A stretch of DNA of 64,000 nt from an uncultured Gemmatimonadales bacterium. GTDB taxonomy: Bacteria > Gemmatimonadota > Gemmatimonadetes > Gemmatimonadales > GWC2-71-9. The position numbers and the translations under genes are program-made. Below the pieces are notes generated by a model. The model was not told where the DNA came from. It ran no database searches and was given only the letters and a program-made list of their open reading frames with translations. The first letter of the stretch is position 1. Every line of letters starts with the position of its first letter. Where the stretch lies: contig CAVPHS010000001.1 of assembly GCA_963704805.1 (NCBI GenBank), positions 1,234,496 through 1,298,495 of the forward strand, read 5' to 3'. Positions 26,225-57,782 of this stretch are shown here, in pieces.

Positions 26225-26298
26225 CGGGACGTAGCGCAGCCCGGTAGCGCACCTGAATGGGGTTCAGGGGGTCGCGGGTTCAAATCCCGCCGTCCCGA
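26225..26298 (+). tRNA. tRNA-Pro (anticodon GGG), no encoded CCA
   Basis: A manual cloverleaf fits: acceptor CGGGACG/CGTCCCG, D stem GCGC/GCGC, anticodon stem CCTGA/TCAGG with loop ATGGGGT, and T arm GCGGG-TTCAAAT-CCCGC. Confidence 0.85.
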
Positions 26299-26431
26299 TT
26301 GTCGAAGTCGTTGTCTCCGCTGCAACTCCGGGGCGCGCGTCCGCGCGCTCCGAAATGCCTCCGCTCCCTTCTCCGCTACATTCATCGAAACTGCTACTGG
26401 GTCGGGTCACGCGACTGCGGGAGACGAACCG

Positions 26432-26653
26432 ATGAAAGGACAGGACCTGTATTACTGCCGGACGTGCGGCAAGGCGACGCTGCACATCGAGGACCAGACG
26501 AACCACCTGCTGCACCTGCTGCTGTCGGTGCTCACCGCGGGGGCGTGGATCATCGTGTGGATTCTCGCCGCGGCCAGCTTTCGCAAGCCCCGCTGTACGA
26601 TCTGCGGGACGTACGCCAAGTATCGCTATTTCCTTGGATACCGGCGGTCGTAA
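26432..26653 (+). CDS. small zinc-ribbon membrane protein
   Basis: CRTC...CTIC cysteine pairs flank one TM helix. Confidence 0.4.
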   Translation: MKGQDLYYCRTCGKATLHIEDQTNHLLHLLLSVLTAGAWIIVWILAAASFRKPRCTICGTYAKYRYFLGYRRS

Positions 26654-26983
26654 CCCGTCGAGGGTGGGGAGCTGGGCATCGCACGCTGAGAGCCGATCCG
26701 AAACGGCGCCACGTTTCGAATTTTCGTTTTCGATCGGCTCCGCGCGGGTGTAATCGACGAATTCGGTCGAAAAACGCGTCGAGGGAACGCGTTTTTTCCT
26801 CCCATTTGGCTCGCGATTTTCGAATTGCTCGCGAACGACCGAAAAACGCGCGATGGACTGCGCGCGCTCGGTCTCTGCTTCCAAATCAGGGGGTCGCTCA
26901 CCGCAACACGTTGACGGCGCAGCGTCTTAGCGAAGCGCTCCGCCATCTTCTCCGCCGAAAGTGGCCGCAAACCTGCGCCCCGC

Positions 26984-27361
26984 GTGCGCCTCGCGCGTTG
27001 CCTGCCCGTCACCTACCGCTGCGTGCGCACCGTGCCGGGTAACCCGAATTTGCGAGACTACGCGAGCGCTGGGGGGCATGCCCGCGCGCGTCGGCGGCTC
27101 ACGCTCGACCGCGTCGAGCGGGAGTTACCGCCGATGGACACGCCCGAGCATGTGCGCGCGGGACTGCAAACCGTCCAACGGTGGGCCGCCGCGGGGATGC
27201 TCGCGGGCACCGTCGCGGGCGCCTGCGTGCGCGCCGCGGAGGCGTGGCTCAAGCTCCACGAGCACGAGCTGGACCGGCAGCGGATGAAAGCGCTGGAGCA
27301 CCGAGTACGTGAGCTGGAGGCCGAGCTGGCGCAGCGTCCTCAGAGGGGGAGACTCCCGTGA
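26984..27361 (+). CDS. hypothetical protein with a C-terminal coiled coil (position suggests a small terminase, unproven)
   Basis: The ORF lies immediately upstream of TerL. No diagnostic motif was seen. Confidence 0.3.
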   Translation: MRLARCLPVTYRCVRTVPGNPNLRDYASAGGHARARRRLTLDRVERELPPMDTPEHVRAGLQTVQRWAAAGMLAGTVAGACVRAAEAWLKLHEHELDRQRMKALEHRVRELEAELAQRPQRGRLP

Positions 27362-27527
27362 CCGCGGACCGTAGTCGTGTCCCTGTGTCCCATGAGTGCC
27401 GGGACACGCGGACACGAGTCTCGACTCGGCCTCGGAAGGCCGTCACCGCGCCACGTTCTCGTGTCCCGCTGGTCTGGGGATCGGGGCAGGGCGGCCGATC
27501 CACGGGACACGATTCTCGGAGGGTCCA

Positions 27528-29054
27528 GTGAGTGGCCGGGACAGGCGGCTCGACGCACTGGAGCAGCGTGTGGGACGCGTGCACGTCCCGCGCAGCGGCA
27601 CGCACGCCGAGCCGTTCGCGGGCACGATGCTCGACGCCATGGACGCCGCGGGGCTCAGTGGACCGAGCTGGGCGGCGTGGCGCACGTTCTGGCGCGCCGT
27701 GTTCGCGTTGCCGCTGGGCGACGCCGAGCGCGCTGTGTTCGAGCGGCATACCGCGCGCAGTGCCGCGCCGCCCGCGCCGGTGCGCGAGGCGTGGCAGATC
27801 GTCGGGCGGCGCGGCGGCAAGAGCCGCAACGCGGCGGTTGCCGCCGCGTTCCTCGCAGTGCGCCAGGACTACGCGCCGCTGCTCGCGCCCGGCGAGCGCG
27901 GCGTCATTCCGATTCTCGCGGCCGATCGCACACAGGCGGGCCAAGTGCTCGGCTATCTCAAAGGACTGGCGCGCCGCGAGCAGTTCGCGCCGCACGTGGC
28001 GCGCATCCTCAAGGAAGCCGTGGAATTCCGGACCGGTGTCACGGTGCGCGTGCACACGGCGAGCTACCGGACCACGCGCGGCTACACCGTCGTCGGCCTC
28101 GTCGCCGACGAAATCGCGTTCTGGCGGTCCGACGACGAGGGCGTCAACCCGGACAGCGAAGTGCTCGCGGCGCTGCGGCCCGGCATGCTCACCATTCCCG
28201 GCGCGCTGCTGCTCGCCATGTCCACGCCGTACGCGTGCCGCGGCGAGCTGTACCGGGCGCACGAGCGGTATTTCGGCCGCGACGATCCGCGCGTGCTCGT
28301 GTGGAATGCCGACACGCGCAGCATGAACCCCGGCGCCGACGCGGGCGCGATCCGCGAGGCGTTCGAGGAGGACCCGGCGCGTGCCGCGGCGGAATACGGC
28401 GAGGACGGCCGCGTGCAGTTCCGCCGCGACGTGCAGGCGCTGCTCGATGCGGAGGCCGTGCGGGCGGCGATGGTTCCCGGCCGGCGCGAGCTGCCACCCG
28501 TTGGCGGTGTGTCCTACGTCGCGTTCACGGACCCGAGCGGCGGCAGCCAGGACGCCATGACGCTCGCCGTCGCGCACCGGGCGGGCGAGCGCGCCGTGCT
28601 CGACTGCCTGCGCGAGGTGCAGCCGCCGTTTTCGCCGGAGGCCGTCGTCGAGGAGTTTGCGGCGGTGCTCCGCGCGTACGGCGTGACCGAGGTGTGCGGC
28701 GACCGCTACGCGGGCGAGTGGCCGCGCGAGCGCTTCGCCGTGCACGGCCTCCGCTACGTGCCGAGCGAGCTGTCCAAGAGTGACCTCTACCGCGAGCTGG
28801 TGCCGCTGGTGAACGGCGCGCGGGTCGAGCTGCTCGACCTGCCGCGCCTCTACGGCCAGCTCGTCGGGCTCGAGCGCCGGGTCGCGCGCGGCGGGCGGGA
28901 CAGCGTGGACCATCCGCCCGGGGGCCGGGACGACGTGGCGAACGCCGCGGCCGGGGCGCTCGCCTTCGCAGCGGGCACGCCGTCGCCGCTGCTCGCGGCG
29001 TTGCTGGAGCGCGCGGTGTCGGCTGCGCTGCCGCCCTTGGAGCTGCCGGCATGA
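27528..29054 (+). CDS. phage terminase large subunit
   Basis: Walker A (GRRGGKS) and Walker B (VVGLVADEIAFW) are present. The GTG at 27528 is preceded by GGAGGG. The tracked start at 27396 lies inside the GTGTCC repeat region. Confidence 0.75.
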   Translation: MSGRDRRLDALEQRVGRVHVPRSGTHAEPFAGTMLDAMDAAGLSGPSWAAWRTFWRAVFALPLGDAERAVFERHTARSAAPPAPVREAWQIVGRRGGKSRNAAVAAAFLAVRQDYAPLLAPGERGVIPILAADRTQAGQVLGYLKGLARREQFAPHVARILKEAVEFRTGVTVRVHTASYRTTRGYTVVGLVADEIAFWRSDDEGVNPDSEVLAALRPGMLTIPGALLLAMSTPYACRGELYRAHERYFGRDDPRVLVWNADTRSMNPGADAGAIREAFEEDPARAAAEYGEDGRVQFRRDVQALLDAEAVRAAMVPGRRELPPVGGVSYVAFTDPSGGSQDAMTLAVAHRAGERAVLDCLREVQPPFSPEAVVEEFAAVLRAYGVTEVCGDRYAGEWPRERFAVHGLRYVPSELSKSDLYRELVPLVNGARVELLDLPRLYGQLVGLERRVARGGRDSVDHPPGGRDDVANAAAGALAFAAGTPSPLLAALLERAVSAALPPLELPA

Positions 29055-29695
29055 GCGCGCCGGTTATTGGCGTGCATTTGCCCGGCCCGGGCGGGGATGC
29101 GGCGGCACTCGCCGTGGTGCAGCGGCGCGAGCAGACCATCCGCGCGGACGAGCGCGACGAGCAGCGGGCCGTCGAGCAGGCGCTGCTACTGCGCGCGGAG
29201 CCCGCCCTGCTGCGGCGAGGCGTGCAGCGGCGCGTGTCCTGCTTTGATGTGGTGCACCTCGGCCAGCTCGCGTCCGACAGTTCAGTGGCGACCGTCGCGG
29301 GCGAAATCCTGCGGCTGAAGCGTGTGGCCGGGCTCGCGCGCGCGGACCTCGTGGCGGATGGGAGCGCCGTCGGCGCGCCGGTCGTCGAGGAGCTGCGGGC
29401 GCGGGGCTTGGACCCGCGGCACCTCCTCGTTACAGACAGCGGACCGGCGGGCCTGGGCGACGACGGCATCCGGCGCGTCCCGGCCGCGGACCTCGCGGGC
29501 CTGCTGCTCGTCTTGCTGGAAGCGGGCCGCCTGAAAATCGCGGCGGCGTTGCCGGACGCGCCGGTCGTCGTTGAGCAGTTGCGGCGCGTCGGCGCGCGCC
29601 CGGGGCCGCTCGCGGTGGCGCTGCTGCTCGCGGTGTGGTGGGCCGAGCAGCACGGGGCGTACGAGCCGGAGGACTGGCCGGTGCTGCAGTTCTAA
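29051..29695 (+). CDS. hypothetical phage protein (214 aa)
   Basis: It overlaps the TerL stop by ATGA. No motif was recognised. Confidence 0.4.
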   Translation: MSAPVIGVHLPGPGGDAAALAVVQRREQTIRADERDEQRAVEQALLLRAEPALLRRGVQRRVSCFDVVHLGQLASDSSVATVAGEILRLKRVAGLARADLVADGSAVGAPVVEELRARGLDPRHLLVTDSGPAGLGDDGIRRVPAADLAGLLLVLLEAGRLKIAAALPDAPVVVEQLRRVGARPGPLAVALLLAVWWAEQHGAYEPEDWPVLQF

Positions 29696-29772
29696 ACCGC
29701 TCGGGGTCCCTGTCCGGCTAGTCACCGGCGGGGCGTAAGGGGCTACGGACTCCAGCCCGCCCCGGGGCCGGG

Positions 29773-30156
29773 CTACTGCCTAGGTTCCGACCAACCGTCA
29801 ACCTTCTCGTCAACGAACGTGACCCTGGCGCCGGGATAGTGCCAGATGGTGAGGTATCCGGCATCCACGCTCTCGGGCTCGCCGAGCAATTTGCGGACCT
29901 CATCCATCTTCATCCCGCGGCGCAGTCGGCGCCAGTTCGCAAGCGACGTTGGGACTGCCCGGCTTCCCGATGGCTCAACCCTGATGAGGGCCTCCAGTTC
30001 ACTGACGCGTCGTTCGAGGTCGGCAGTCCTGCGCTGGAGAGAATCGATCCGGCGCAGAAGGCTGTCGGCTGACACGTTCTGTCCGACCGCGACGGTCGGG
30101 ATGGAGGCGGCCGTAAACGCGGCGACGAGCGCTGCACGGAATATGGCGGTCATCAT
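29773..30156 (-). CDS. secreted protein with a coiled coil and a BamE/SmpA-like C-terminus
   Basis: A signal peptide (MMTAIFRAALVAAFTAASIPTVAVG) and the segment MDEVRKLLGEPESV are present. Confidence 0.45.
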   Translation of the reverse strand: MMTAIFRAALVAAFTAASIPTVAVGQNVSADSLLRRIDSLQRRTADLERRVSELEALIRVEPSGSRAVPTSLANWRRLRRGMKMDEVRKLLGEPESVDAGYLTIWHYPGARVTFVDEKVDGWSEPRQ

Positions 30157-30255
30157 GGGCCTCCTTCGGCAAGGCACAGCGGCGCTCTGCCAGTAGGGAT
30201 TTGAGTGGACGGCGTGGGTGAGCGGCATAACGAGATGCGCCTAAGCTCTGGTTGA

Positions 30256-31002
30256 TCACCACCGTTCCTTTGGCTTCCAAGCCGGGTCGGTGAGGTAACC
30301 GTAGAGCATCGATGCGGCGGCGGTGGGCCAATCCGCGCCGTCCTTCGGCCAGTTCGTTTTGACCAGCATAACGCCAAACGTGACCCTCAACAGATTAGCG
30401 AGCGAATCCCTTTCGGTAGTCGTCAGCTTGATGAATTCGAGCCGATGCGTCGCAGGGTTGGAGGTCACGATCCCGTCCGCAGCCTCCGCAGTGGCGACGA
30501 GAAGCATCTCGCCGTTCGCGTGCTCTTTTTGCGAAAGGGAGGCCAAGCTATCGGCCATAGTGCCGGAGCCCATCATGGGGGCGAGCTGATCGATGGCATC
30601 GAGCCCGCGCTTGAACATGTCGGCTTTGGCGCGGGTGATTCTCGCGAGGCCGTCAAACGCCTCAGCCGCCCACGAGGCACTTCTGTAGAAGCCGCTGTCC
30701 TTGGCGGTGCTCATGGAACGGCGCAGCAAGCTCGCTGCGCAGTCGTACTCGCTTGCCGTCACTCTGAATTTGTAGAGTAAATCAGTCGGATTCGTTGTCG
30801 TGTCGTCGCGGGTTGGTTCATTGTCCACGGCAGCTTTCGCATGCCGCAGACTGGCAACATAAAGTGCCGTGAAGCCAGCTGGTGTGGTTGAACCTGCCAG
30901 CGGTGGTACACACATCCACTGTGCGCCCGCGTCCCGGTTCCCCATCGGGGACAAGATGGCCGTGGCCAGGAGGGTGATGTATCGACGCGAAAGGCACCGC
31001 AT
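30256..31002 (-). CDS. hypothetical secreted protein
   Basis: The likely start is MRCLSRRYITLLATAILSP. The upstream part of the tracked ORF runs through a repeat. Confidence 0.4.
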   Translation of the reverse strand: MRCLSRRYITLLATAILSPMGNRDAGAQWMCVPPLAGSTTPAGFTALYVASLRHAKAAVDNEPTRDDTTTNPTDLLYKFRVTASEYDCAASLLRRSMSTAKDSGFYRSASWAAEAFDGLARITRAKADMFKRGLDAIDQLAPMMGSGTMADSLASLSQKEHANGEMLLVATAEAADGIVTSNPATHRLEFIKLTTTERDSLANLLRVTFGVMLVKTNWPKDGADWPTAAASMLYGYLTDPAWKPKERW

Positions 31003-31225
31003 GTCGATTGAGTCTACAACTCCCGCCACGATGCGCCAATCAATGCGGCCTACTGTCGAAAGGACCAGCCTGGTAGGGCGGCAGTCAGTCAGGGGTCTCG
31101 GTCCGGGCTGATCACCGGCGGGGCGTAGGGGGCTGCGGCATCTAGCCCGCCCCGGAGCTGAGAACGCCGCAACTTCGCCTCTCAATGCCGCAAAATCGCC
31201 CTAAACCCCGGGCCCGGGCGTTATC

Positions 31226-32422
31226 ATGATATGCCCCATGCCCACGCATCGCCCGACGATCAATCCGGCCCTGCTCGTCTGGGCGCGCCGCTCGCTGAAC
31301 CTCACCGAGGAACAGGCGGCGACGCGGGTAGGCGTGTCGCTCGACATCTTGCGCGGGTGGGAGAAAGGCGATCCGCTCCCCACAATCGCGCAACTCCGCA
31401 ACGCCGCCGAGAAGTACCGCCGGCCGCTCGGCGTATTCTTTCTGCCGACACCGCCCGCAGACCCGGCTCCCCCGCATGACTTTCGGACAGTTTCCGACCG
31501 GGAAGCCGAGGAGCTTAGTCCCGAGTTACTCGTCGAGCTGCGGCGCGCGCACTATCGCCGTCAACTCGCGCTAGAGCTGCACGAGGACCTCGAACGCCGA
31601 CCGCCGCGCTTCCAACTGCGCGCGCAGCTTGACGACGACGAGGAGGAGACGGGCCGACGTGTCCGCCACGCGCTCGGCGCTCGGCTCGCGGATCAAGAGC
31701 GGTGGCGCGAGGGGAGCGCCTTCAACGAGTGGAAGGCGCTCGTTGAGGCGCACGGGGTGCTCGTGTTCCAGGCGCGCGGCGTGTCCTTTCGCGAGGCGCG
31801 CGGGTTTTCGATTGCCGAGCACCCGTTGCCCGCCATCGTCGTCAACGGTTCGGATTTCCCCAACGCCAAGACGTTCACGCTCCTGCATGAGTTTGTGCAC
31901 CTCATGCTGCATCTCGGCGGCATCTGCGATCCGTACGCACATGTTGCCCGTGGCCGCTCTCGCAACAGCCGCGTCGAAGTGTTCTGCAACCACGTCGCGG
32001 GGGCGGCGCTCGTGCCCGCGGCGGCGCTGGTCAATCATGGTCTGGTGCAATCGAACGAGGAGCCCGAGGGATGGACGGAGGCGACGCTCGACCGGCTCGC
32101 GCGCGACTTCGCCGTTAGCTCGCTCGTCATCCTCCGCCGGCTGCTCATGCTCGGCCGGACCACAACACGCTTCTATGAGAGCTTTCAAACGCAGGTCATC
32201 GCGCGGGCGGAACGACACCGCGCCGAGCGCCCGCCGCAGGAAGGCGGACCGCCGCGGCCCGTTATGGTCGTCGCCGACTTGGGCCGAGCCTTCACCGGAA
32301 CCGTGCTCGATGCGTACAAGAGCCGCGTCATTACCGCCTCGGACGTATCGGAGTACCTCCGCGTCCGCGTTCCGCAGATCGGCGCGGTACAGGAGCGCCT
32401 TACCCTGGGCGCTGGTGAGTAA
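31226..32422 (+). CDS. XRE-type HTH fused to an ImmA/IrrE family metallopeptidase
   Basis: An N-terminal HTH (LTEEQAATRVGVSLDILRGWEKG) and the zinc motif HEFVHLMLH are present. Confidence 0.8.
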   Translation: MICPMPTHRPTINPALLVWARRSLNLTEEQAATRVGVSLDILRGWEKGDPLPTIAQLRNAAEKYRRPLGVFFLPTPPADPAPPHDFRTVSDREAEELSPELLVELRRAHYRRQLALELHEDLERRPPRFQLRAQLDDDEEETGRRVRHALGARLADQERWREGSAFNEWKALVEAHGVLVFQARGVSFREARGFSIAEHPLPAIVVNGSDFPNAKTFTLLHEFVHLMLHLGGICDPYAHVARGRSRNSRVEVFCNHVAGAALVPAAALVNHGLVQSNEEPEGWTEATLDRLARDFAVSSLVILRRLLMLGRTTTRFYESFQTQVIARAERHRAERPPQEGGPPRPVMVVADLGRAFTGTVLDAYKSRVITASDVSEYLRVRVPQIGAVQERLTLGAGE

Positions 32423-32469
32423 CGCTGTTCTCATTCGATACCAGCGCACTTATTGGCGCACATAACGAG

Positions 32470-32880
32470 TTGTATCGGCCGCAGACGTTCCCCGGTCTGT
32501 GGCGAAAGCTGGAAGCGATGATCGCCGAGGGTGAGCTGCGCTGTTCGGAGGAGGTGCTCCACGAGCTGGAGCGCCAGGACGATGACTTGCTCAAATGGGC
32601 GAAGGCTCAGAACGGCCTCTTTGTCCCAATGGACGCCGAGATTGAAGCGGCGGTCAAAACCGTCGTTGTGATTCCCAACGTCGTAAAGAACGCCTCGACC
32701 GACAACTCGGCAGACCCGTTCGTTGTGGCGGTTGGCATAGCGCGGAAGGCGACGGTTGTGAGCAGGGAGAAGCCCGGTAGCGCGCAACGCCCCAAAATCC
32801 CGTACATCTGTAGTGCGTTGAGTGTGCCTCACCAAACACTGGAGGAGTTTGTGACCGGGCAGGGGTGGTCATTTGAGTAG
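32470..32880 (+). CDS. DUF4411 (PIN-like) protein, partner of ImmA/IrrE
   Basis: The pairing is typical and the sequence fits (FPGLW...SEEVLHELERQDDDL...ADPFVVA). The conserved-looking N-terminus (LFSFDTSALIGAHNEL) extends upstream to about 32425 with no ATG/GTG/TTG. Confidence 0.65.
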   Translation: MYRPQTFPGLWRKLEAMIAEGELRCSEEVLHELERQDDDLLKWAKAQNGLFVPMDAEIEAAVKTVVVIPNVVKNASTDNSADPFVVAVGIARKATVVSREKPGSAQRPKIPYICSALSVPHQTLEEFVTGQGWSFE

Positions 32881-32901
32881 CTACTCCGCGAGGAGGCATT
32901 A

Positions 32902-34169: not shown

Positions 34170-34389
34170 CCAGCGACGCCGAGACTTTTGGTAGTTTTGG
34201 CACTACAAAATCGGAGAATCTTCTACTTGCAGCCGTTCGGCTGCTCACTAAATTGCGTCTTACCATAGCGGCATCGGCCGCGTGACTGGCGGACCCCTCG
34301 CTCCGGCGGAGCGAGGACACAGCCGCAAGACCTCAGTGACTGCCACTTGGAGCCAACTGCTCCGGGTGGCTTTCGTTTTTGGGGGGACA

Positions 34390-50718: not shown

Positions 50719-50757
50719 GACGCTGGCCGCCCGGAGTCTTCTAATAACGGTGTCCGA

Positions 50758-51660: not shown

Positions 51661-51709
51661 AGCGATCCTTCGGTGGAGGTGGTGGTGATGGATATTCTCT
51701 CTCCCGCTC

Positions 51710-51742
51710 TCGAATCCCGCCAGTCAAACCCAGCCATCCCGA
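51710..51742 (+). repeat. degenerate, internally duplicated tRNA-Pro T-loop/acceptor remnant
   Basis: TCGAATCCCGCC-A-GTCAAACCCAGCC-ATCCCGA is followed by TTGTC, as occurs after the intact tRNA. Confidence 0.5.
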
Positions 51743-51919
51743 TTGTCTTCGTGGTCCTAGCCTGCAATTTGGATGACGGTCTGACCCTGGGCGTGTCGCT
51801 CGCCAACGTGCCGGAGCGGCAAGATCCCAGGTCCGGTGCTCGAGGGCCAGATCGGCGACGTCCTCGAGCATCACGCGTCCGGGATGATGGGGCACTTCGA
51901 CGTGGTGCGATGAAAGGTG

Positions 51920-52045
51920 TTTGCCGGAATGTTTGCCGGTCCATGATCGCCAGTGACTACCAATGCGGTCGTTAAGACACCCATACGTGCGAATAAAACA
52001 ACGGCTCCGCATGGGAGCCGTTGAATTCAAATCCCGCCGTCCCGA
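51920..52045 (+). repeat. conserved ~126-nt element, copy C
   Basis: It has the same boundaries. This is the most divergent copy but it retains both hairpins. Confidence 0.85.
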
Positions 52046-52251
52046 TTGGAGTTAGGCATCTTCCAAGCCGACTGATCAATAGTCGGCTCAATAGTTCCGC
52101 AGTCTCGTTAAGCCGTGTCCGCAGGACTTAAGACGTATGAAAACTGCCCTCGACCCTAGGACGACTTTCTGACACGCTGACCCAATGCCGCGCGGAACCG
52201 CAGGCGTCCTCCACTGTTTTCTACAACACTCTTTCGACTCGGACCTGCGAC

Positions 52252-53250
52252 GTGAGAAATGCCTTGCGACCGTGGGCGGTCGCGTTCCTCGGACTGCTTG
52301 GCTGTCGCGGTGAACCCCTGGTTTCGCCGGAAGGCGAGCCGGGCGTCTACCCGGTCGGCAGCACCATGCTCACGAGTCTTGCGGCGCTGGATGTGCTCGG
52401 TGACACCCGCCGCGACCTCGTCGCCGTCGCCCGCGGTGACCTGACAATCCGCATCCTGCCGGGCGACACCGCGGGTACCTTCGCGGCGCCGCTCGCCCTC
52501 ACGGCGGGAAACGACGCCCGCCGGGCGACCGCCGGAGATGTGAACGGCGACGGCGTCCCCGACCTGCTCGTAATCGGGCACGACAACGTGTTCATCGTGC
52601 GGCTCGGCCTGGGCAGCGGCCGCTTCGCCGATGGGGTGAAGTACCCCCTCCGCAACCACGGGAACTTCATCCTCGTCGCCGATCTCAACGGGGACGCGTT
52701 CGACGATGTCGTGGCCGTGCACGACGGCTCGGGGAACCCGGTGTACGTCACGGCCTACCTCGGCTCCGCGAGCGGAGCGCTGCAGCCGGTGTGGGAGATG
52801 GGCACGACCTACTTCACCTCGATGGGGCTCGCCGCCGGCGACTTCGACGCCGACGGCAAGACCGACGTCGCAGTCGCCGTCGGCGACAACCGCGCCGCGG
52901 TGTTGGTGTTCCGCGGACAGGGGACGGGGGAGTTCGCCGCGCCGCTCGTACTGCCGACGCTCTCGCCCGATCCCCGCACAACCGACGGCACGACCGCGCT
53001 GGCCGTGGGGGATCTCGACGGGGACGGCCGCGACGACGTCGTCGTGGCCTGCTACGCCTTCAGCAACCGGCTCGTCATCCGGGGGTCGCGGGTTGAGCTG
53101 CGGCCGCTTCGCGGCCTCGCTCCGCTTGACCGGCTGCAGCCGGTCACCGGCGCTTCGCGCCGGACGCGTCAAATCCCGCCGTCCCGACTGAGTGAAGCCC
53201 TGCAACGTTGCTGGTTGCAGGGCCTCTTTTCAGGCGAGGTTAAACGATAA
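52252..53250 (+). CDS. FG-GAP/VCBS repeat lipoprotein, with a 3' end that reads through a tRNA-derived site
   Basis: A lipobox (LLGC) is present. The repeats GDVNGDGVPDLLV, ADLNGDAFDDVV, GDFDADGKTDVAV and GDLDGDGRDDVVV occur. The tail from about 53082 is tRNA-fragment and terminator sequence. Confidence 0.65.
   Translation: MRNALRPWAVAFLGLLGCRGEPLVSPEGEPGVYPVGSTMLTSLAALDVLGDTRRDLVAVARGDLTIRILPGDTAGTFAAPLALTAGNDARRATAGDVNGDGVPDLLVIGHDNVFIVRLGLGSGRFADGVKYPLRNHGNFILVADLNGDAFDDVVAVHDGSGNPVYVTAYLGSASGALQPVWEMGTTYFTSMGLAAGDFDADGKTDVAVAVGDNRAAVLVFRGQGTGEFAAPLVLPTLSPDPRTTDGTTALAVGDLDGDGRDDVVVACYAFSNRLVIRGSRVELRPLRGLAPLDRLQPVTGASRRTRQIPPSRLSEALQRCWLQGLFSGEVKR
53082..53188 (+). repeat. tRNA-Pro 3' fragment (GGGGGTCGCGGGTT ... 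TCAAATCCCGCCGTCCCGA) interrupted by a ~74-nt GC-rich insertion
   Basis: 14 nt plus 19 nt match tRNA positions 44-73. The insert at 53096-53169 contains three short hairpins. Confidence 0.7.
53199..53231 (+). terminator. rho-independent-type terminator
   Basis: The sequence reads CCCTGCAAC-GTTGCTG-GTTGCAGGG followed by CCTCTTTT. Confidence 0.55.
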
Positions 53251-53280
53251 GGGCCTCGCTATGGCGAGGCCCCGGAATTG

Positions 53281-53787
53281 CTATCGCGACTGCTGTTCGA
53301 CTTCGACGGACCGTTTGGACTCGCCGCCGTTTCCAGTTTTCACTTCGATCTGGCGCGGCTTCGCCTTTTCGGTCTTGGGGAGCGTGATCGTCAGCACGCC
53401 GTTGTCGTAGTTGGCCTTGATGTCCTTCGGCTCGACCGACGACGGCAGCGTGAACGACCGCTCGAACACGCCGTACATCCGCTCATAGCGGTGGACGCGC
53501 TTCGTGTTCTCTTCGCGCTCGTCCTGCTTCGTCCCCTGAATCGTCAGGACATTGCCTTCGAGCGAGATTCTCATGTCCTCGGGTCGTACGCCCGGAATCT
53601 CGGCCGTAATGCGGATCGCATCGGGCTCTTCCACGACATCGACGGCAGGGACCCACGCCGCCGCCGCGCTGTCGCGGTACATCCAGTCCGACCCGCCCAG
53701 CGTTTCGTTCAGGACTCGCTGAATCCTGTCGGTCAGGGCCGGCAATGCGCCTGCCGATTCCCGCGGGTTAGTTCTCGTCACATACAT
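53281..53787 (-). CDS. Hsp20/alpha-crystallin small heat-shock protein
   Basis: The ACD core is present (VDVVEEPDAIRITAEIPGV...FERSFTLP...ANYDNGVLTITLPK). GGAGGGAGAC lies upstream of the ATG at 53787. Confidence 0.9.
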   Translation of the reverse strand: MYVTRTNPRESAGALPALTDRIQRVLNETLGGSDWMYRDSAAAAWVPAVDVVEEPDAIRITAEIPGVRPEDMRISLEGNVLTIQGTKQDEREENTKRVHRYERMYGVFERSFTLPSSVEPKDIKANYDNGVLTITLPKTEKAKPRQIEVKTGNGGESKRSVEVEQQSR

Positions 53788-54085
53788 GTCTCCCTCCAAG
53801 GGAAAAGGTTGCGTCCTCGGGGGCAGCAACCCGCATGCCACATTCCGGGGCCTTTCTCTTGCCGTTTTGACAACCGGGGGATCGAACTCTGGCAGTCACC
53901 CTGTCAGGATTGCCGGGTGATCGCGATCGCCATCGCGGCGTCGGTATTCGAGGGGGTCTGCAGTCAGACTGACCGGCCTCCTGTCACACTGACCATCGGC
54001 GTTTGTCAGCCCGACAAGCCACCCCCTTCAGGTTCTGGCACGCCGGTTGCCGGGAGGCAGAGCGCCACTGTCAGAGGAGGATGTT

Positions 54086-54757
54086 ATGCGTACCGATATG
54101 GACATTCAGAAGGACGTCGTCGCGGCGCTCAAGTGGGAGCCGAGCCTCCGGGATGACGACATCGCCGTGGGTGTGCGGGATGGCGTAGTCACGCTCGCGG
54201 GCTTCGTCGACAGCTACGCCGACAAGCTGACCGCCGAGCGGGTGGCCAGCAAGGTCAAAGGAGTGAAGGCCCTCGCAAACGATCTCGCGGTGAAACTTCC
54301 GTCGAGCTCGACGCGGCCGGACCCCGACCTCGCCCACGCCGCCGTCGACGCCCTCAAGTGGAGCGTCGCCGTGCCGCAGGACCGCATTCAGGTGAAGGTC
54401 AAGAACGGCTGGCTCGTACTCGAAGGGGAAGTAGACTGGTACTACCAGAAGGAGGCCGCCCAGCGTGCGGTCCGCGACCTCACGGGCATCAGCGGTGTGT
54501 CGAACCTGATCACCGTGCGGGCGCGGCCGACCCCGACCGACGTGAAGCAGCGGATCCGGCAGGCGTTGCAACGGGGCGCCCAGTTCGATGCTGAGCGCAT
54601 CAGTGTCGAGATCCAGGGTAATAGGGCGATCCTGCGCGGCACCGTGCGCTCGTACGCCGAGATGAAGGATGCGGAGCGCGCCGCCCGCGATGCCCCCGGT
54701 GTCACCGAAGTGGAGAACGATCTTACGATCGACGCGGGCGTGTACGTTGACGTCTGA
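54086..54757 (+). CDS. BON-domain protein (three BON repeats, OsmY-like)
   Basis: The pattern I.V.V.DGVVTL.G.V occurs three times. GAGGAGG lies upstream of the ATG at 54086. Confidence 0.85.
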   Translation: MRTDMDIQKDVVAALKWEPSLRDDDIAVGVRDGVVTLAGFVDSYADKLTAERVASKVKGVKALANDLAVKLPSSSTRPDPDLAHAAVDALKWSVAVPQDRIQVKVKNGWLVLEGEVDWYYQKEAAQRAVRDLTGISGVSNLITVRARPTPTDVKQRIRQALQRGAQFDAERISVEIQGNRAILRGTVRSYAEMKDAERAARDAPGVTEVENDLTIDAGVYVDV

Positions 54758-54888
54758 CGGCGCGAAAAAAGGGGGACCGGGTTCATCCCCGGTCCCCCAT
54801 TCACAGGAGGGAAACAAATGAGGCGGGCTACGACGCAGCCGGGGGCCAGCCTTCGATGACCAGGCGCCGCCTACACGATTGGGCCGTA

Positions 54889-55320
54889 ATGAGCTTCTAC
54901 GAGCGCTTCGAAGCGCTCGTGGCGTTGGTGCTCACGGCGGTTATCACCATCGTCATCGTGGTCGCCCTGTGGCGTCTCATCGTTAGCGTGGTGGATAAGT
55001 TGTTGCTCCAAAGCCTGAACCCGCTGGAGCACAATGTGTTTCAGGCCGTCTTCGGGGAAATCCTGACCCTATTGATTGCATTGGAGTTCAACCACACGCT
55101 GCGCTACGTCGTCACCCGGGGCTGGGGGATCATCCAGGCAAAGATCGTCATTCTGATCGCGGTGCTGGCTCAGGTGCGCAAGATCATCGTGTCGGATGTC
55201 TCGGCACTGCCGCCGGCAACGCTGGGGGCCGAAGCCGGCCTGCTCCTCGCCTTGGGCATAACGTATTTGTTGATGCGCGAAGGGAAAGACGGGCTCGAGC
55301 CGCCATCAGCGGATCGCTAG
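54889..55320 (+). CDS. PsiE-like phosphate-starvation-inducible membrane protein
   Basis: Four TM helices are present, along with LIALEFNHTLRYV. The start is 54889 or 54856. Confidence 0.55.
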   Translation: MSFYERFEALVALVLTAVITIVIVVALWRLIVSVVDKLLLQSLNPLEHNVFQAVFGEILTLLIALEFNHTLRYVVTRGWGIIQAKIVILIAVLAQVRKIIVSDVSALPPATLGAEAGLLLALGITYLLMREGKDGLEPPSADR

Positions 55321-55369
55321 TCAGAGAATCGACGGGGGACGGGACGGCCGCTTCCTAGTTCGCGTTTTG

Positions 55370-55494
55370 TTTGCCGTAATGTCTGCCGGTCCATACCCGC
55401 CGATGCCTACCAATGCGGTCTGTTCGCGCACGTAAGTGCCGGAAAAACAACGGCCCCGCATGGGGGCCGTTGAATTCAAATCCCGCCGTCCCGA
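55370..55494 (+). repeat. conserved ~126-nt element, copy D
   Basis: It has the same boundaries. The inner hairpin AACGGCCCC-GCATG-GGGGCCGTT is perfect in this copy. Confidence 0.85.
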
Positions 55495-55511
55495 CTCGTA
55501 AGGAGCTTCAA

Positions 55512-55547
55512 CCCCTACAACGAGTTCCCTCGTTGTGGGGCTTTTGC
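55512..55547 (+). terminator. rho-independent-type terminator after element D
   Basis: The sequence reads CCCCTACAACGAG-TTCCC-TCGTTGTGGGG followed by CTTTTGC. Confidence 0.6.
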
Positions 55548-55552
55548 AAGCA

Positions 55553-55814
55553 GGTCCTTCCCTTCGCTCCCTTTTCTCTTACACAAAGACGCGCGCGGCA
55601 TGTCATCCTGAGCGAAGCGAAGGACCTGCTTTTGACAGGTGCGCGAGCGCGAGAAGCAGATCCTTCGTGCTGCGCACTCAGGAGGTCCCTCGCGCCTGTG
55701 GCGCTCCCCAATCCCAAAGCAGGTCCTTCGCTACGCGCGCCTGCGGCGCGCTCCGCTCAGGATGACAAGCGCGCTCGCTGTCGCAACAAAAAAAGATCAG
55801 CGAAGGGAAGGATC
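55553..55814. repeat. nested imperfect palindrome (MITE/REP-cluster-like) built from GTCATCCTGAGCGAAGCGAAGGACC-type units
   Basis: The outer arms are 55553-55568 and 55799-55814. The inner arms are 55602-55629 paired with 55719-55732 plus 55754-55766. Confidence 0.7.
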
Positions 55815-57185
55815 TGCCATAGAGCCCAACTGGCTCTCGCTGGGCTCCGCTCAGCAGAACCACGGCTCGGTGAGCCGTGCGGGGATCGGCCGCTCGGGGG
55901 GCGGGCGTCGCACGCCCCCTGCTCGTTGTTGCGCGCTGACTTCGGCGTGCAGCGCGTCCATGCGCGGGTCGGGGTGGGTCCAGCGGTAGGTGAACGCCGC
56001 GGGGTCGAGCGCGCCGAGGAAGGGCTGGATGGCGGGGCGGGTGAGCAGCGCCGAGCCTGGGGGGATGAGCAGGCGGATGGTCAGCTGCACCGGGTCCACT
56101 TGATCTACGAGGTCCCTCGCGTGAAAGAAGTCCACCAGATCGCGGTAGCTGTCGAGTGTTTCCCACGGCGTGAACGGGATCAGCGAGGGGCGCAGCGGGA
56201 TGCCGGCGCGGCGCGTCAGGTCGAACGCGGTAAGCGCGTCGGCGCGGGTGTGGCCTTTCTCTAATTCCGAGAGCACGACGTCGCTCAGCGACTCGACGGC
56301 CGACACGATGAACGCGCAGCCCGTCCGGGCGAATTCCGGGAGATGCGCGCGGTGGCGGAGCAGGTGCTCGATCTTGGCCGTGAAGTCGTAGGTGACGCCG
56401 GGGAATTCGGCGTGCAGCGCGCGGACCAGCTTCAGCGCGTGGCCGGGGCCGTTCAGGAAGTCGGGGTCGCCGAAGGTGATGTGTCCCGCGCCGGCGGCGA
56501 CTAGGCGGCGGATATCAGCAAGGACGATCTCGGGCGGCACGACAAAGAATCGCCCGTCGTAGACGGGAGGAATGGGGCAGTGGAGGCAGTGGTGCAGACA
56601 CCCTCGACTTGCCTCGACGTAACCCGCTGGAATCTCGACTTCATTGCGCTGGAGTTTGACATACCTGGTGAGCCCTGGCAGCGAGGCGCGACTGGGAGCT
56701 GGAAAGTCGAGGCGTTTGCGTGCGGCGTGCGGCGTGTGGCGTGGCGATTCACCACGTTCGAGGCGATCGACGTGCTCGACGAACTCCTCCTCGAATTCCC
56801 CTCCGAAAACCTCATCAGCCAACCCGCCCAGGAGGTAGTCCGCGTTGAGCAGGGCGTAGAGGCCGTGAAACACGATGCGGCAGCGCGGGTTTTCGCGGCG
56901 GATCCGCTCGGCGGCGCGGACGCCCAGGCGCAGCGCGGTGTGCATCGGGACCGCGATGGCGACCAGTTGGGCGCGGCGGATCTTGGTGTCGTCCCAGGGC
57001 TCGAGCGCGAGGTCGAGGGAGTCGGGCGCGAAGCCGGCGCGCTCGAGGAAGGCTTTGGGCCAGGCGATGCCGAGAGGCTGGTGGCCGAGCTCGTAGCAGG
57101 AAAGCAGGACGATCGCGCCGGGGTCGCGGAGGGGGGGCGAGGCCGGGGCCTGGGTGGTCTGGATTGCGACGTCGGGTATGGCCAT
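55797..57185 (-). CDS. B12-binding-domain radical SAM protein, candidate selenoprotein (C-U-A-E-P tail with in-frame TGA at 55851-55853)
   Basis: The radical SAM motif CLHHCLHC (CX3CX2C) is present. The tracked ORF stops at TGA after ...EPWFC, and the next codons read AEP. A 9-bp hairpin lies 3 nt downstream. The frame then runs to a TGA at 55797. The start is 57185 (MAIPD) or 57314. Confidence 0.7.
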
Positions 57186-57249
57186 CGATATGAAGTTAAT
57201 CCGGCCTCGTTGGTGCAGCTCCCGCATCACTTCGGCTGGGCAGCTCTCG

Positions 57250-57480
57250 CCAAGGCCGCCGGGGCCAAGGACCGCGTCGCCGAGTTGGCGAAGGATCTCC
57301 TCGCGCATTTCCAAAGCCGGATTGCAACGCTCGACGGTAAAGGGATGGTTGTGTGTATGACGCGGCGAACTGCGTCCGGGTATTCGACGCGCTCACTGCG
57401 CTGCCAGGGTGCCCTGAGGTAAAGGTGGTGATGACCGGAGACCTCGGCATAGACCCGCCGCAGTGGAGCGAAGCCGGCGT
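57250..57480 (+). pseudogene. hsdR: fragment of a type I restriction enzyme R subunit (hsdR) with one frameshift
   Basis: LAKDLLAHFQSRIATLDGKGMVVCMTRR is followed in another frame by CVRVFDALTALPGCPEVKVVMTGDLG. This resembles the HsdR segment ...MDGKAMIVCMSRRICV.LY..I..LRP......IKVVMTGS as I recall it. Confidence 0.45.
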
Positions 57481-57657
57481 TCTACCCAGCCCTGATACCG
57501 AGCGGCGAGATAACCTAAGCCGGCAGCAAGGATGGCAAGGATTCCGCCTGCCAGGATGTCTGAATCCATAGAGATGTTTTGGAGACCGTGGCCGCCCGGT
57601 GAACTAGAAAGACCTGCCTATTCACCACTTCCTCGATCATCATAATCGCTGAGCATG

Positions 57658-57782
57658 TTTGCCGTAATGTTTGCCGTTCCATGTCCGCCAATGCCTACCA
57701 ATATGGTCACTGCGCGCATGTAAGTGCATATAAAACAACGGCCCCGCATGGAGGCCGTTGCATTCAAATCCCGCCGTCCCGA
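57658..57782 (+). repeat. conserved ~126-nt element, copy E (last of the array)
   Basis: It has the same boundaries and the same 3' 20-mer. Confidence 0.85.

What the first reader, a model, noticed from the sequence alone, without database searches (positions are those of the whole stretch)
26225..57782. Same-orientation array of tRNA-Pro 3'-end copies, five embedded in a discrete ~126-nt structured element, dividing ~19 kb into integrase-less gene cassettes
Besides the intact tRNA-Pro (26225-26298) and the 42-bp attR of the phage-like island (38951-38992), the last 19-20 nt of the tRNA (TTCAAATCCCGCCGTCCCGA) recur six more times in the same orientation. These copies end at 43837, 45385, 52045, 53188, 55494 and 57782. 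Degenerate copies lie at 43633-43643 and 51710-51742. Five copies (A 43713-43837, B 45260-45385, C 51920-52045, D 55370-55494, E 57658-57782) form the 3' end of one conserved element. Its left boundary is sharp: sequence upstream of TTTGCCG is unrelated between copies. The ~105 nt upstream of the tRNA-like 20-mer is not tRNA-like, because the 5' strand of the T stem is absent. It contains a direct TTTGCCG(T/G)AATGT(T/C)TGCCG duplication and several CC(A/G)AT(G/A)C-type short repeats. It also contains two hairpins whose pairing is kept by different sequences in different copies. One is GCAC-GTAC-GTGC / GCAC-ATAT-GTGC / GCAC-GTAA-GTGC / GCAT-GTAA-GTGC. The other is AACGGCCCC...GGGGCCGTT in D versus AACGGCTCC...GGAGCCGTT in C. 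About 10 nt after the core are semi-conserved (CTGAGTGAAG twice, ATGAGTGAAAG, TTAGCGAAGTC, and TTGTCGAAGTC after the real tRNA). Terminator hairpins follow at several sites, again with different but paired stems. The cores delimit the following units:
- kinase/regulator/hydrolase
- MOT1-like transporter
- five oxidoreductase and secreted-protein genes
- FG-GAP protein
- Hsp20/BON/PsiE-like set
- radical SAM gene plus an hsdR fragment
None of these units carries a recombinase. Hypothesis (a): serial accretion at tRNA-Pro of related integrative units, each with attP = 105-nt arm + 20-bp core + terminator arm, mobilised in trans. This would be functionally analogous to an integron-like cassette array using a tRNA-derived site. 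Hypothesis (b): the element is a small structured RNA gene (scaffold, then a 3' 20-nt tRNA-matching segment, then a terminator), which is formally a guide-RNA-like layout. However, no TnpB/Cas12-type gene is in the window. I do not recognise this element as a described family.
Basis: partly seen in the sequence, partly recalled or inferred. Interest (0 to 1): 0.9.

Follow-up and report, generated by a model that had tools for sequence, protein, structure and literature searches.

The report
Stacked gene units at tRNA-Pro
Downstream of a proline tRNA gene in a soil Gemmatimonadota genome, gene units that integrated one after another each end in the same ~126-nt integrase attachment-site arm; this is a known kind of genomic-island stacking, unusual mainly because almost no unit keeps its own integrase.

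Summary
The last 20 nt of tRNA-Pro(GGG) recur 8 times on one strand (about 0.03 expected), and five copies end a conserved ~126-nt element.

I found 149 copies of the element's 5' motif in soil Gemmatimonadota contigs. 118 are joined to the same 20-mer. Most of the rest are truncated or interrupted copies, and 5 are variants joined to other tRNAs.

Left units and right units are combinatorially shuffled between contigs. The 105-nt "scaffold" travels with the left unit, and homology breaks 1–2 nt after the 20-mer. Strains 98–99.7% identical up to the tRNA diverge right after it. This is the signature of site-specific recombination.

The scaffold shows no conserved RNA fold. It carries phased direct repeats (RTGTTTGCCG ×2) that also occur in the 3' tails of a λ-Int-like integrase family, plus a minus-strand terminator hairpin.

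One complete relative (L016, at tRNA-Arg) shows the scaffold as the att arm across the core from the integrase gene.

The guide-RNA idea (b) is not supported.

The units lack integrases. Whether they are mobilised in trans or are fossils is unresolved.

Close precedents exist: Dehalococcoides ssrA islands, CIMEs and tycheposons.

The parts
26225..26298 (+). Intact tRNA-Pro(GGG). Its last 20 nt (26279-26298) are the recombination core.
   Evidence: ARAGORN; Rfam tRNA, 64.5 bits; pattern search.
26299..38950 (+). 12.7-kb integrative island of a different arm family. It carries HTH/Peptidase_M78, DUF4411, AAA_25 and a tyrosine integrase at 37467-38819 that reads toward its attR.
   Evidence: Pfam. 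The same left-end sequence follows a scaffold-core in L158, so this island type can use either the tRNA or a scaffold-core as its target.
38951..38992 (+). attR of that island: 42 nt identical to the tRNA 3' part, followed by a native-type tRNA terminator.
   Evidence: Alignment; flank listing.
38993..43643 (.). Unit with a histidine kinase (39037-42102, -), a LuxR response regulator (42041-42703) and an alpha/beta hydrolase (42777-43625). It ends in an 11-nt core remnant at 43633-43643.
   Evidence: Pfam. Homologues at ~86-88% identity in L062, L132, L078, L120 and L118; those that reach the unit's right end stop exactly at 43643. Remnant shown.
43644..43712 (+). Right arm (ATGAGTGAAAGATCAAGCC-hairpin-GGGGCTTCTTCTTGCG) running straight into scaffold A. 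This is an 'empty' unit made only of two att arms.
   Evidence: Sequence read; arm family defined.
43713..43837 (+). Element A: 105-nt scaffold (left att arm) plus the 20-nt core at 43818-43837.
   Evidence: Minus-strand terminator called at 43816-43790.
43838..43974 (+). Right arm after A: a 12-nt box, a plus-strand terminator (43851-43882), and the direct repeat GTTGTGAATCTTGTTGTGACT (43954-43974).
43975..45259 (+). Cargo of the unit between A and B: an MFS_MOT1 transporter. The mechanical ORF runs 43842-45236; the true start is probably later.
   Evidence: Pfam.
45260..45385 (+). Element B: scaffold plus core (45366-45385).
   Evidence: Terminator at 45363-45339 on the minus strand.
45386..51919 (.). 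Unit with five minus-strand genes: an unknown 721-aa protein, Gluconate_2-dh3, a GMC oxidoreductase, NAGPA and an unknown 300-aa protein. It contains a degenerate core at 51724-51742.
   Evidence: Pfam.
51920..52045 (+). Element C: scaffold plus core (52026-52045).
52046..53187 (+). Unit with an FG-GAP protein ORF (52252-53250, which runs on past the unit's end). It ends in a tRNA-Pro fragment (53081-53094), a ~73-nt GC-rich T-loop insert (53095-53167) and core copy X (53168-53187, one mismatch). It has no scaffold.
   Evidence: Pfam.
53188..55369 (.). Unit with a right arm (terminator 53197-53223), Hsp20 (53281-53841, -), a BON protein (54047-54757) and PsiE (54856-55320).
   Evidence: Pfam. 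In L008, L073 and L080 an Hsp20 gene also follows a core, with different left neighbours.
55370..55494 (+). Element D: scaffold plus core (55475-55494).
55495..57657 (.). Unit with a B12-binding radical SAM gene (55851-57314, -).
   Evidence: Pfam. No hsdR fragment detected.
57658..57782 (+). Element E: scaffold plus core (57763-57782). This is the last copy in the array.
57832..59712 (-). Trans_reg_C-TPR regulator, the likely native chromosomal flank of the array.
   Evidence: Pfam. In L103 the same gene follows tRNA-Pro, one 3.6-kb unit and a scaffold-core; the 83%-identity homology starts at the left edge of scaffold E.

Best explanation
The five ~126-nt elements are attR-type junctions: a left att arm plus the crossover core. 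They belong to a family of small site-specific integrative units that target the last 20 bp (T loop to 3' end) of tRNA-Pro(GGG) in soil Gemmatimonadota.

Each unit has four parts, in order:
1. A right arm: a tRNA-trailer-like box, a plus-strand terminator, and sometimes a GTTGTGAGT direct repeat.
2. 0-10 kb of ordinary accessory genes.
3. The 105-nt scaffold.
4. The 20-bp core.

The scaffold is protein-binding DNA, not a structured RNA. It contains two 12-bp-phased repeats (RTGTTTGCCG), three ~10-bp-phased GCCRAT boxes, a GTAAGTGCC box, an A-tract, and a GC hairpin that acts as a minus-strand terminator next to the crossover region.

Shown here:
- Units are exchanged at the core between genomes and between near-identical strains.
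- The scaffold is linked to the unit on its left.
- In a complete relative at tRNA-Arg (L016), the scaffold is the att arm across the core from a lambda-Int-like tyrosine integrase gene, and that gene's 3' tail carries the same repeat.

Inferred:
- A heterobivalent tyrosine integrase binds the arm repeats with its N-terminal domain and recombines a circular unit with any copy of the core, whether the tRNA or an earlier junction. This stacks the units.
- Because the units carry no integrase, they either depend on an integrase supplied in trans (CIME-like, about 45% likely) or are remnants whose integrase genes were deleted.
For: - The core is enriched 8 versus 0.03 expected. The scaffold motif gives 5 window hits versus 0 expected.
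- Of 149 copies of the 5' motif in Gemmatimonadota contigs, 118 are joined to the 20-mer at offset 101-107. The rest are truncated, have insertions, or are joined to other tRNAs.
- Left and right units are combinatorially shuffled.
- Scaffold identity follows the left unit: 0.916 for pairs sharing only the left flank, 0.840 for pairs sharing only the right flank, 0.834 for unrelated pairs.
- Homology breaks at +1 or +2 after the core.
- Some left flanks are 99% identical while the right flanks are unrelated.
- Strains 98.4-99.7% identical up to the tRNA diverge within 0-52 nt after it.
- L016 has the complete layout: tRNA fragment, hairpin, scaffold, cargo, integrase, intact tRNA.
- The integrase tails encode ACGGCAAA..CGGCAAACA, the reverse complement of the scaffold repeat.
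- Remnants of an L016-type integrase abut tRNA-Pro in L042 and L108.
- The integrase model (pLDDT 85.6) has an N-terminal beta-sheet plus helix. Its best structural matches are full-length lambda Int.
- The scaffold hairpin is called as a minus-strand terminator in all five window copies.
Against: - I found no intact integrase of the scaffold-linked (L016) family at tRNA-Pro. All 43 closest database matches to the remnant are short fragments.
- The common right arm is instead linked, in L160, to an integrase of the window-island family. The cognate enzyme of the window units is therefore ambiguous.
- Right and left arms do not pair strictly within units.
- Crossovers confined to the core could partly reflect homologous recombination, since the core is among the longest blocks of perfect identity.
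- No excision product, binding or activity was or could be observed here.
Confidence: 0.8

Rival explanations
1. Fossil array. The units are remnants of once-autonomous islands whose integrase genes were deleted. Today the array is reshuffled only by homologous recombination between the ~220 bp of shared arm and core sequence, with no site-specific activity.
For: - Integrase remnants lie next to tRNA-Pro (L042, L108, L019).
- The sampled data contain truncated scaffolds, cores with insertions and degenerate cores.
- Arm pairing within units is loose.
- No intact cognate integrase was found.
Against: - Breakpoints fall at +1 or +2 after the 20-mer rather than being spread across the similar arms.
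- Exchanges occurred between lineages 99% identical in their flanks.
- The scaffold is more conserved than its adjacent flank in several pairs, for example 99.2% versus 89.6%.
- 118 of 149 copies are intact.
- An integrase-bearing island uses both the tRNA and a scaffold-core as target, so at least some recombination at these cores is integrase-driven.
Confidence: 0.3
2. Small structured RNA gene. The 105-nt scaffold plus the 20-nt tRNA-matching 3' segment would be a guide-RNA-like transcript that directs a nuclease or recombinase to tRNA-Pro.
For: - The layout (scaffold, then a 20-nt match, then a terminator) formally resembles the TnpB omega-RNA arrangement.
- Variants with the same 5' scaffold carry segments matching other tRNAs.
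Against: - RNAalifold finds no conserved fold beyond one hairpin, at -3.1 kcal/mol.
- That hairpin is followed by a T-run on the opposite strand in all five copies.
- There is no promoter-like site, and the sequence upstream of the sharp left edge is not conserved.
- No Rfam family matches, even at E<=1.
- No TnpB, IscB, Cas12 or IS110 gene is conserved nearby.
- In L016 the 'guide' is simply the duplicated tRNA segment at an island end next to a tyrosine integrase.
Confidence: 0.03
3. The scaffold is a replication origin or partition site (iterons, an A-tract and a hairpin) recognised by the Prim-Pol/AAA_25 proteins of the master elements, rather than an integrase arm.
For: - Master elements encode AAA_25 or Prim-Pol replication-type proteins.
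- The scaffold has direct repeats next to an A-rich tract.
Against: - There are only two 12-bp repeats.
- The same repeat sits inside the integrase 3' coding tail on the other side of the core, a two-arm arrangement typical of arm-type sites.
- The integrase has a lambda-Int-like arm-binding domain.
- The scaffold always abuts the crossover core.
Confidence: 0.07
4. An ordinary dispersed REP/MITE-type repeat that happens to lie near tRNA-Pro fragments.
For: It is short, non-coding, multi-copy and contains hairpins.
Against: - All complete copies are fused to the 20-mer at a fixed offset and in the same orientation as the tRNA.
- Copy number per genome is low; each of two long MAG contigs (3.4 Mb and 0.69 Mb) holds one match.
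- There are no terminal inverted repeats or target duplications.
- No copy occurs in the first 43 kb of the window.
Confidence: 0.02

Closest known systems
Dehalococcoides ssrA-specific genomic islands (McMurdie et al. 2011, PMC3146451)
   Same: - Tandem islands lie downstream of a single tRNA-like gene.
- Each is bounded by a 20-bp direct repeat of the gene's 3' end, with the insertion point in the T loop.
- A conserved motif lies just upstream of each repeat.
- About half the islands (15 of 31) lack an integration module and were proposed to be cis-mobilizable elements.
   Different: - Those islands use a serine recombinase (DsiB, CcrB-like) and target tmRNA.
- Their conserved upstream motif is 15 bp, not a 105-nt arm with phased repeats.
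- Here the linked integrases are lambda-type tyrosine recombinases, and essentially all scaffold-ended units lack one.
CIMEs (cis-mobilizable elements) formed by accretion and deletion, ICESt1 family (Pavlovic et al. 2004, cited in PMC3146451)
   Same: Non-autonomous units are flanked by att sites of an integrative element, sit in tandem with related elements at one site, and carry no recombination or transfer genes.
   Different: - CIME mobilisation by the ICE integrase has been shown experimentally (from my own knowledge). Nothing has been shown here.
- Here the units are many and small (0-10 kb), and no helper element is linked to them.
- The host phylum and integrase family are different.
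Tycheposons of Prochlorococcus (Hackl et al., bioRxiv 10.1101/2020.12.28.424599)
   Same: Tyrosine-recombinase elements integrate at tRNA genes. Successive integrations push older elements further into the island, leaving partial tRNAs and fragmented integrases.
   Different: - Tycheposons generally carry their integrase, and in that paper fragmented integrases mark degenerated remnants. Here integrase-less units are the rule, and they keep long conserved arms.
- The phylum and integrase clade are different.
Phage lambda attP / Int (heterobivalent tyrosine integrase; PDB 1z1g, 5j0n)
   Same: - The predicted integrase has the three-domain lambda Int architecture.
- The att site spans ~220 bp, with direct repeats about 100 bp from the core.
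- In L016 these repeats lie on both arms.
   Different: - Sequence identity to lambda Int is only ~18%.
- The target is a tRNA gene.
- In the window units, the right arm carries a different repeat from the left arm.
- Binding has not been tested.
Integrons (IntI, attI, attC cassettes)
   Same: Functionally analogous picture: an ordered, same-orientation array of recombinase-less gene units, each ending in a conserved recombination site, and shuffled between strains.
   Different: - No IntI and no attI.
- The sites are sequence-conserved two-armed att sites, not structure-defined attC hairpins.
- Units are multi-gene, lie in both orientations, and carry their own terminators.
- This is not a member of the integron family.

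Membership tests
tRNA-targeting integrative element / genomic island | Unit bounded by an intact tRNA (or an earlier junction) and a same-orientation direct repeat of the tRNA segment. | tested here: met
tRNA-targeting integrative element / genomic island | Presence/absence or replacement between related genomes, with breakpoints at the repeat. | tested here: met
tRNA-targeting integrative element / genomic island | Integrase gene inside the unit. | tested here: not met
   None in the six units from 38993 to 57782 (Pfam). No recurrent recombinase in 34 bounded units of other loci. Profile and tblastn screens with three integrase types found only remnants. The feature is met only for the separate island at 26299-38950.
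Cis-mobilizable element (CIME) | Flanked by att sites of an integrative element family while lacking recombination and transfer genes. | tested here: met
   The scaffold is homologous to the att arm of the integrase-bearing element in L016. The units have no recombinase.
Cis-mobilizable element (CIME) | Excision or integration driven by a helper element's integrase in trans. | not testable with these tools
   Needs reads, PCR or biochemistry. No intact cognate helper at tRNA-Pro was found.
Lambda-type (heterobivalent) attP | Integrase with an N-terminal arm-binding domain in addition to the core-binding and catalytic domains. | tested here: met
   AlphaFold model of the L016 family: three strands plus a helix at residues 1-55, then a linker. 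The top five Foldseek hits are full-length lambda Int, aligned over 343-379 columns.
Lambda-type (heterobivalent) attP | The same arm-type repeats on both arms, distinct from the core. | tested here: inconclusive
   Met in L016 and in the tRNA-Phe and tRNA-Arg elements, where the repeat lies in the integrase tail and, in L016, also in the scaffold. In the window units only the left arm has RTGTTTGCCG; the right arm has GTTGTGAGT repeats or none.
Integron | IntI-type integrase with attI adjacent to the array. | tested here: not met
   The only integrase in the window is a 450-aa PF00589 protein at the far end of a 12.7-kb island. There is no attI-like arrangement.
Integron | attC sites defined by an imperfect-palindrome structure rather than by sequence. 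| tested here: not met
   The scaffold is conserved in sequence, has direct repeats, and shows no overall fold.
Guide RNA of TnpB/IscB/Cas12 or IS110 bridge RNA | Adjacent or conserved effector gene (TnpB, IscB, Cas12, IS110 recombinase). | tested here: not met
   Pfam on window genes. Neighbour clustering across 138 loci shows no conserved neighbour.
Guide RNA of TnpB/IscB/Cas12 or IS110 bridge RNA | Conserved RNA secondary structure with covariation, and a match to a known RNA family. | tested here: not met
   RNAalifold gives -3.1 kcal/mol and a single hairpin. Rfam finds nothing.
REP/MITE dispersed repeat | Many dispersed copies independent of the tRNA core. | tested here: not met
   118 of 149 copies are fused to the core at a fixed offset. 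The others are truncations, insertions or variants joined to other tRNAs.

The most novel reading that the evidence does not exclude
Soil Gemmatimonadota may maintain a cassette platform that works like an integron but is built from lambda-type att sites. In this reading, small integrase-less gene units each keep a complete two-armed ~220-bp attP derived from the tRNA-Pro 3' end. They are actively excised, exchanged and re-inserted at any copy of a 20-bp core by tyrosine integrases supplied in trans. Several integrase families would share the same core, giving strain-level shuffling of regulators, kinases and stress genes.
Probability: 0.35. Interest if true: 0.65.

Novelty: new member of a known kind. 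Interest (0 to 1): 0.4.

Why it matters
- The work gives a precise, testable map of a recombination hotspot in Gemmatimonadota, an abundant but little-studied soil phylum. The map covers a 20-bp core, a 105-nt left arm with candidate arm-type sites, and a right arm that doubles as the tRNA trailer and terminator.
- It shows that accessory genes (kinases, two-component systems, transporters, chaperones) are swapped as modules between strains that are 98-99.7% identical elsewhere.
- If the integrase-less units are mobilised in trans, this would be a large natural example of non-autonomous integrative cassettes. It would also be a source of compact att sites and integrases with different tRNA specificities.
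- If they are fossils, the locus is still a clean record of serial integration, and it explains why assemblies break at this tRNA.

Tried and rejected
- Rfam at gathering and permissive thresholds: only the tRNA matches.
- Viral contigs, annotated phages and plasmids: no copy of the element.
- Reading the scaffold as a small ORF or as the displaced 3' end of the integrase gene: rejected. The offsets to the core vary (101-107 nt) and in-frame stops occur.
- Retroelement primer-binding site: rejected. The copy is in sense orientation and has no CCA (reasoned from the sequence).
- Search for an intact tRNA-Pro-type master of the L016 family: the 68-aa remnant retrieves only fragments. Its closest full-length relatives sit at tRNA-Arg, tRNA-Phe and tRNA-Trp.
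- My first integrase screens were biased toward L016-type queries. After finding the L160 integrase I re-screened, and the units remained integrase-less.
- Pairing of right and left arm types within units: inconclusive.
- Using the AKR gene as an anchor did not show the far end of the L160 element, because the 10-kb flank limit cut it off.
- The hsdR fragment was not found.

Full report
**1. Observation**

ARAGORN finds one tRNA, tRNA-Pro(GGG), at 26225-26298. Its last 20 nt, TTCAAATCCCGCCGTCCCGA, occur 8 times on the + strand, where shuffles give 0.03. The copy at 53168-53187 has one mismatch.

An alignment of the eight sites shows that A (43713-43837), B (45260-45385), C (51920-52045), D (55370-55494) and E (57658-57782) share ~105 nt upstream of the 20-mer. 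The left edge is sharp, at TTTGCCG. The attR at 38951-38992 and copy X share only tRNA sequence. The 5' motif of the scaffold occurs exactly five times in the window, against 0 expected.

Rfam recognises nothing but the tRNA.

No unit between 38993 and 57782 has a recombinase. The 12.7-kb island next to the tRNA has a tyrosine integrase at 37467-38819. The hsdR fragment was not found.

**2. Distribution**

An exact scan of one genome per species with the scaffold's 5' motif alone gave 18 loci. Sixteen are in Gemmatimonadota MAGs, and two are in bins labelled Acidobacteria and Rokubacteria.

Of the 149 copies:
- 118 are joined to the same 20-mer at offset 101-107.
- Most of the rest are truncations or carry insertions in the core.
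- Five are variants in which the same 5' scaffold is followed by a different hairpin and the reverse complement of the 5' half of tRNA-Arg(CCT), a CAT-anticodon tRNA or tRNA-Phe(GAA).

No copy was found in viral contigs, phage records or plasmid records. The window itself comes from a 1.8-Mb Gemmatimonadetes contig.

**3. What the scaffold is**

L016 holds a complete relative. In order, it contains:
- a 42-nt 5' fragment of tRNA-Arg;
- a hairpin;
- the reversed scaffold;
- 4.6 kb of cargo, including an AAA_25 protein;
- a 374-aa PF00589 integrase;
- the intact tRNA-Arg, 12 nt after the integrase gene.

So the scaffold is the att arm at the island end far from the intact tRNA. In the circular form it lies across the core from the 3' end of the integrase gene.

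This integrase family is large: 634 hits at E<1e-20, about 370 aa each, from Gemmatimonadaceae. Its C-terminal tails encode NGKQ(T/A)AN. The underlying DNA, ACGGCAAA..CGGCAAACA, is the reverse complement of the scaffold's RTGTTTGCCG direct repeat. The same repeat therefore flanks the core on both arms, as arm-type sites do in lambda attP.

An AlphaFold model of the family (pLDDT 85.6) has an N-terminal three-stranded sheet plus helix, a linker, a helical domain and a catalytic domain. Its five best PDB matches are full-length lambda integrase chains.

For tRNA-Pro, L042 and L108 carry a C-terminal remnant of this integrase type on the minus strand, immediately after the intact tRNA. A scaffold lies 4 kb downstream, with a 20-nt insertion in its core.

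**4. Not an RNA**

On 98 non-redundant copies RNAalifold finds only the GC hairpin, at -3.1 kcal/mol. Conservation is by sequence: the repeats are nearly invariant, followed by phased GCCRAT boxes and a GTAAGTGCC box.

The GC hairpin is perfect in 57 of 98 copies. It shows C-G to T-A compensation at two positions and frequent C.A intermediates. The terminator scan calls it as a minus-strand terminator followed by TTTT(A/T) in all five window elements. The same scan calls the post-core hairpins as plus-strand terminators and finds no promoter-like site.

Each core is thus bracketed by convergent terminators. This makes sense for an att site that must terminate the integrase gene in the circular form and the tRNA in the integrated form.

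**5. Recombination signature**

I clustered 700 nt to the left of each scaffold and to the right of each core. The same left unit pairs with many right units, and the reverse also holds.

| Pair type | Mean scaffold identity |
|---|---|
| Sharing only the left flank | 0.916 |
| Sharing only the right flank | 0.840 |
| Unrelated | 0.834 |

The scaffold therefore belongs to the unit on its left. Copies sharing a left unit stay homologous through the scaffold and the 20-mer, then diverge at the first or second base after it. One left unit has at least 8 different continuations.

Some exchanges are recent. Left flanks are 99.0-99.1% identical over 560-700 nt while the right flanks are unrelated. 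In several pairs the scaffold is more conserved than its flank.

I then used the conserved aldo/keto reductase gene near the tRNA as an anchor. tRNA-Pro(GGG) was present in all 14 orthologous loci, and six contigs end at the tRNA. Results:
- L157 and L158 are 98.4% identical over 6 kb up to the tRNA, and unrelated after ~50 nt of arm.
- L147/L149 (99.4%) and L149/L151 (99.7%) diverge within 0-18 nt after the core.

**6. Unit anatomy**

47 of 149 cores are followed by a common right arm: CTGAGTGAAGAnCAAGCC, a covarying terminator hairpin, GGGGCTTTTTCTTCG..CCCCGTG. In a subset a GTTGTGAGT direct repeat follows, reaching about +95. The window has this repeat after A, at 43954-43974.

The same arm follows the intact tRNA in most anchored loci, so it doubles as the tRNA trailer and terminator.

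In the window, 43633-43712 is a core remnant plus a right arm that runs directly into scaffold A, forming an empty unit.

There are 41 fully bounded units, from 0.08 to 12.7 kb. A Pfam batch on 123 ORFs from the 34 non-window units shows kinases, response regulators, oxidoreductases, hydrolases, Cpn60, TetR and MarR. No recombinase recurs. Profile and tblastn screens with three integrase types find only two full-length integrases in the scaffold-selected loci and the window: the L016 integrase and the window island's integrase. Everything else is a remnant.

**7. Open point: the cognate integrase**

All 43 closest database matches to the tRNA-Pro-adjacent remnant are fragments of 47-119 aa. 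Its closest full-length relatives sit at tRNA-Arg, tRNA-Phe and tRNA-Trp.

In L160, an intact 359-aa integrase reads toward the tRNA-Pro 3' end, right after the common right arm. It is 37% identical to the window island's integrase and is not of the L016 type.

In L158 a scaffold-core is followed by the same left end as the window's 12.7-kb island. So at least three integrase lineages use the same 20-bp core, and any core copy can serve as a target.

The scaffold is tied to the L016 family. The right arm is tied either to the native tRNA trailer or to the L160 family. Arm pairing within units is loose. Whether the integrase-less units are mobilised in trans or are remnants cannot be decided from sequence alone.

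**8. Comparison with known systems**

- The closest described system is the Dehalococcoides ssrA islands. They are tandem units bounded by a 20-bp repeat of the tmRNA 3' end, inserted in the T loop, with a conserved motif upstream of each repeat. Fifteen of 31 lack an integration module and were interpreted as CIME-like (PMC3146451). They use serine recombinases.
- Tycheposons show the same push-down stacking, leaving partial tRNAs and fragmented integrases (10.1101/2020.12.28.424599).
- The system works like an integron in outline but fails every defining feature of that family.

I file it as a new member of the known kind 'tandem tRNA-targeting integrative elements with non-autonomous derivatives'. 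Its notable points are the long, conserved two-armed att site kept by units without integrases, and the sharing of one core by several integrase families.

**9. Verdict**

- Hypothesis (a) is supported, except for the untested claim of trans mobilisation.
- Hypothesis (b) is rejected.
- Interest is moderate (0.4).

Noticed in passing
L016:1302-7262; also L004, L006, L011, L090, L139, L141, L142, L144-L146: Relatives of the scaffold-bearing elements duplicate the 5' half of a tRNA (Arg-CCT, a CAT anticodon, Phe-GAA, Trp) up to the anticodon loop. The integrase gene reads into the 5' end of the intact tRNA. The island therefore replaces the tRNA's upstream region and must supply its promoter. 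Targeting the 5' side is unusual for tRNA-integrating elements.
   Followed up: partly
window 53081-53187; L017, L025, L057, L065, L136: A tRNA-Pro 3' fragment is interrupted exactly in the T loop (GGTT|...|GTCAAATCC) by a ~73-nt GC-rich insert of three hairpins. The same insert recurs at the same position in five other loci, with compensatory stem changes. It may be the arm of yet another element family or a small insertion element.
   Followed up: partly
window 52252-53250: The FG-GAP ORF runs through the tRNA fragment, the T-loop insert, core X and the right arm. Pfam repeats stop near residue 266 of 332, so the gene's 3' end is probably fused or truncated by recombination.
   Followed up: no
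L014, L074, L095, L098, L120 (for example L095:11181-11280): A recurrent 78-80-nt mini-unit lies between two cores. It consists of a native-type tRNA terminator, then GCCGCCGCTCGCTCCGCTCGCGGCATTACCG, then a second core whose first base differs from the tRNA copy (CTCAAATCCCGCCGTCCCGA in L074, L095 and L120; GTC... in L014 and L098).
   Followed up: no
L019, L042, L108 (scaffold cores): The same 20-nt insertion splits the core (TTCAAATCCCGC|ACTAAAGTACTTCCTTCGGT|CGCCGTCCCGA). In L042 and L108 this is the unit whose tRNA-proximal end keeps an integrase remnant.
   Followed up: no
L160:1953-3239: An intact 359-aa integrase, 37% identical to the window integrase at 37467-38819, has HTH_17 and MerR genes upstream. 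It reads toward the tRNA-Pro 3' end immediately after the common right arm, which includes GTTGTGAGT x2. The far end of this element lies beyond the retrievable flank.
   Followed up: partly
L158:1831 and below; window 26299-26360: The left end of the window's 12.7-kb island (TTGTCGAAGTCGTTGTC..GGGGCGCGCGTCCGCGCGC) follows a scaffold-core in L158. This island type can therefore integrate either at the tRNA or at a secondary core.
   Followed up: partly
L144:11167-11260, L146:2462-2540: After tRNA-Phe(GAA) comes a box, a hairpin and a direct repeat (ATTGTCCCCCG x2 or ATTGTGCCC x2). The layout is the same as the tRNA-Pro right arm. No tRNA-Phe 3' repeats occur in the sequence held downstream of the tRNA (about 10 kb in L144, less in L145 and L146).
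   Followed up: partly
L149-L154 (contig ends): Six of 14 contigs anchored on the conserved aldo/keto reductase gene end within ~130 nt of tRNA-Pro. This suggests assemblies break there because of strain heterogeneity in the array.
   Followed up: no
L157 vs L159, first ~45 nt after the tRNA-Pro core: Two loci that are 99.4% (tRNA side) and 98.8% (array side) identical differ only in a short patch covering the post-core box and terminator stem. This looks like a patch exchange or a scar of an integration-excision cycle.
   Followed up: no
window 31226-35971; L143, L144: The window island and the L016-family master elements share a module of an HTH regulator, DUF4411 and an AAA_25 or Prim-Pol protein. 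These look like small replicative integrative elements rather than phages; no capsid or terminase domains were detected.
   Followed up: partly
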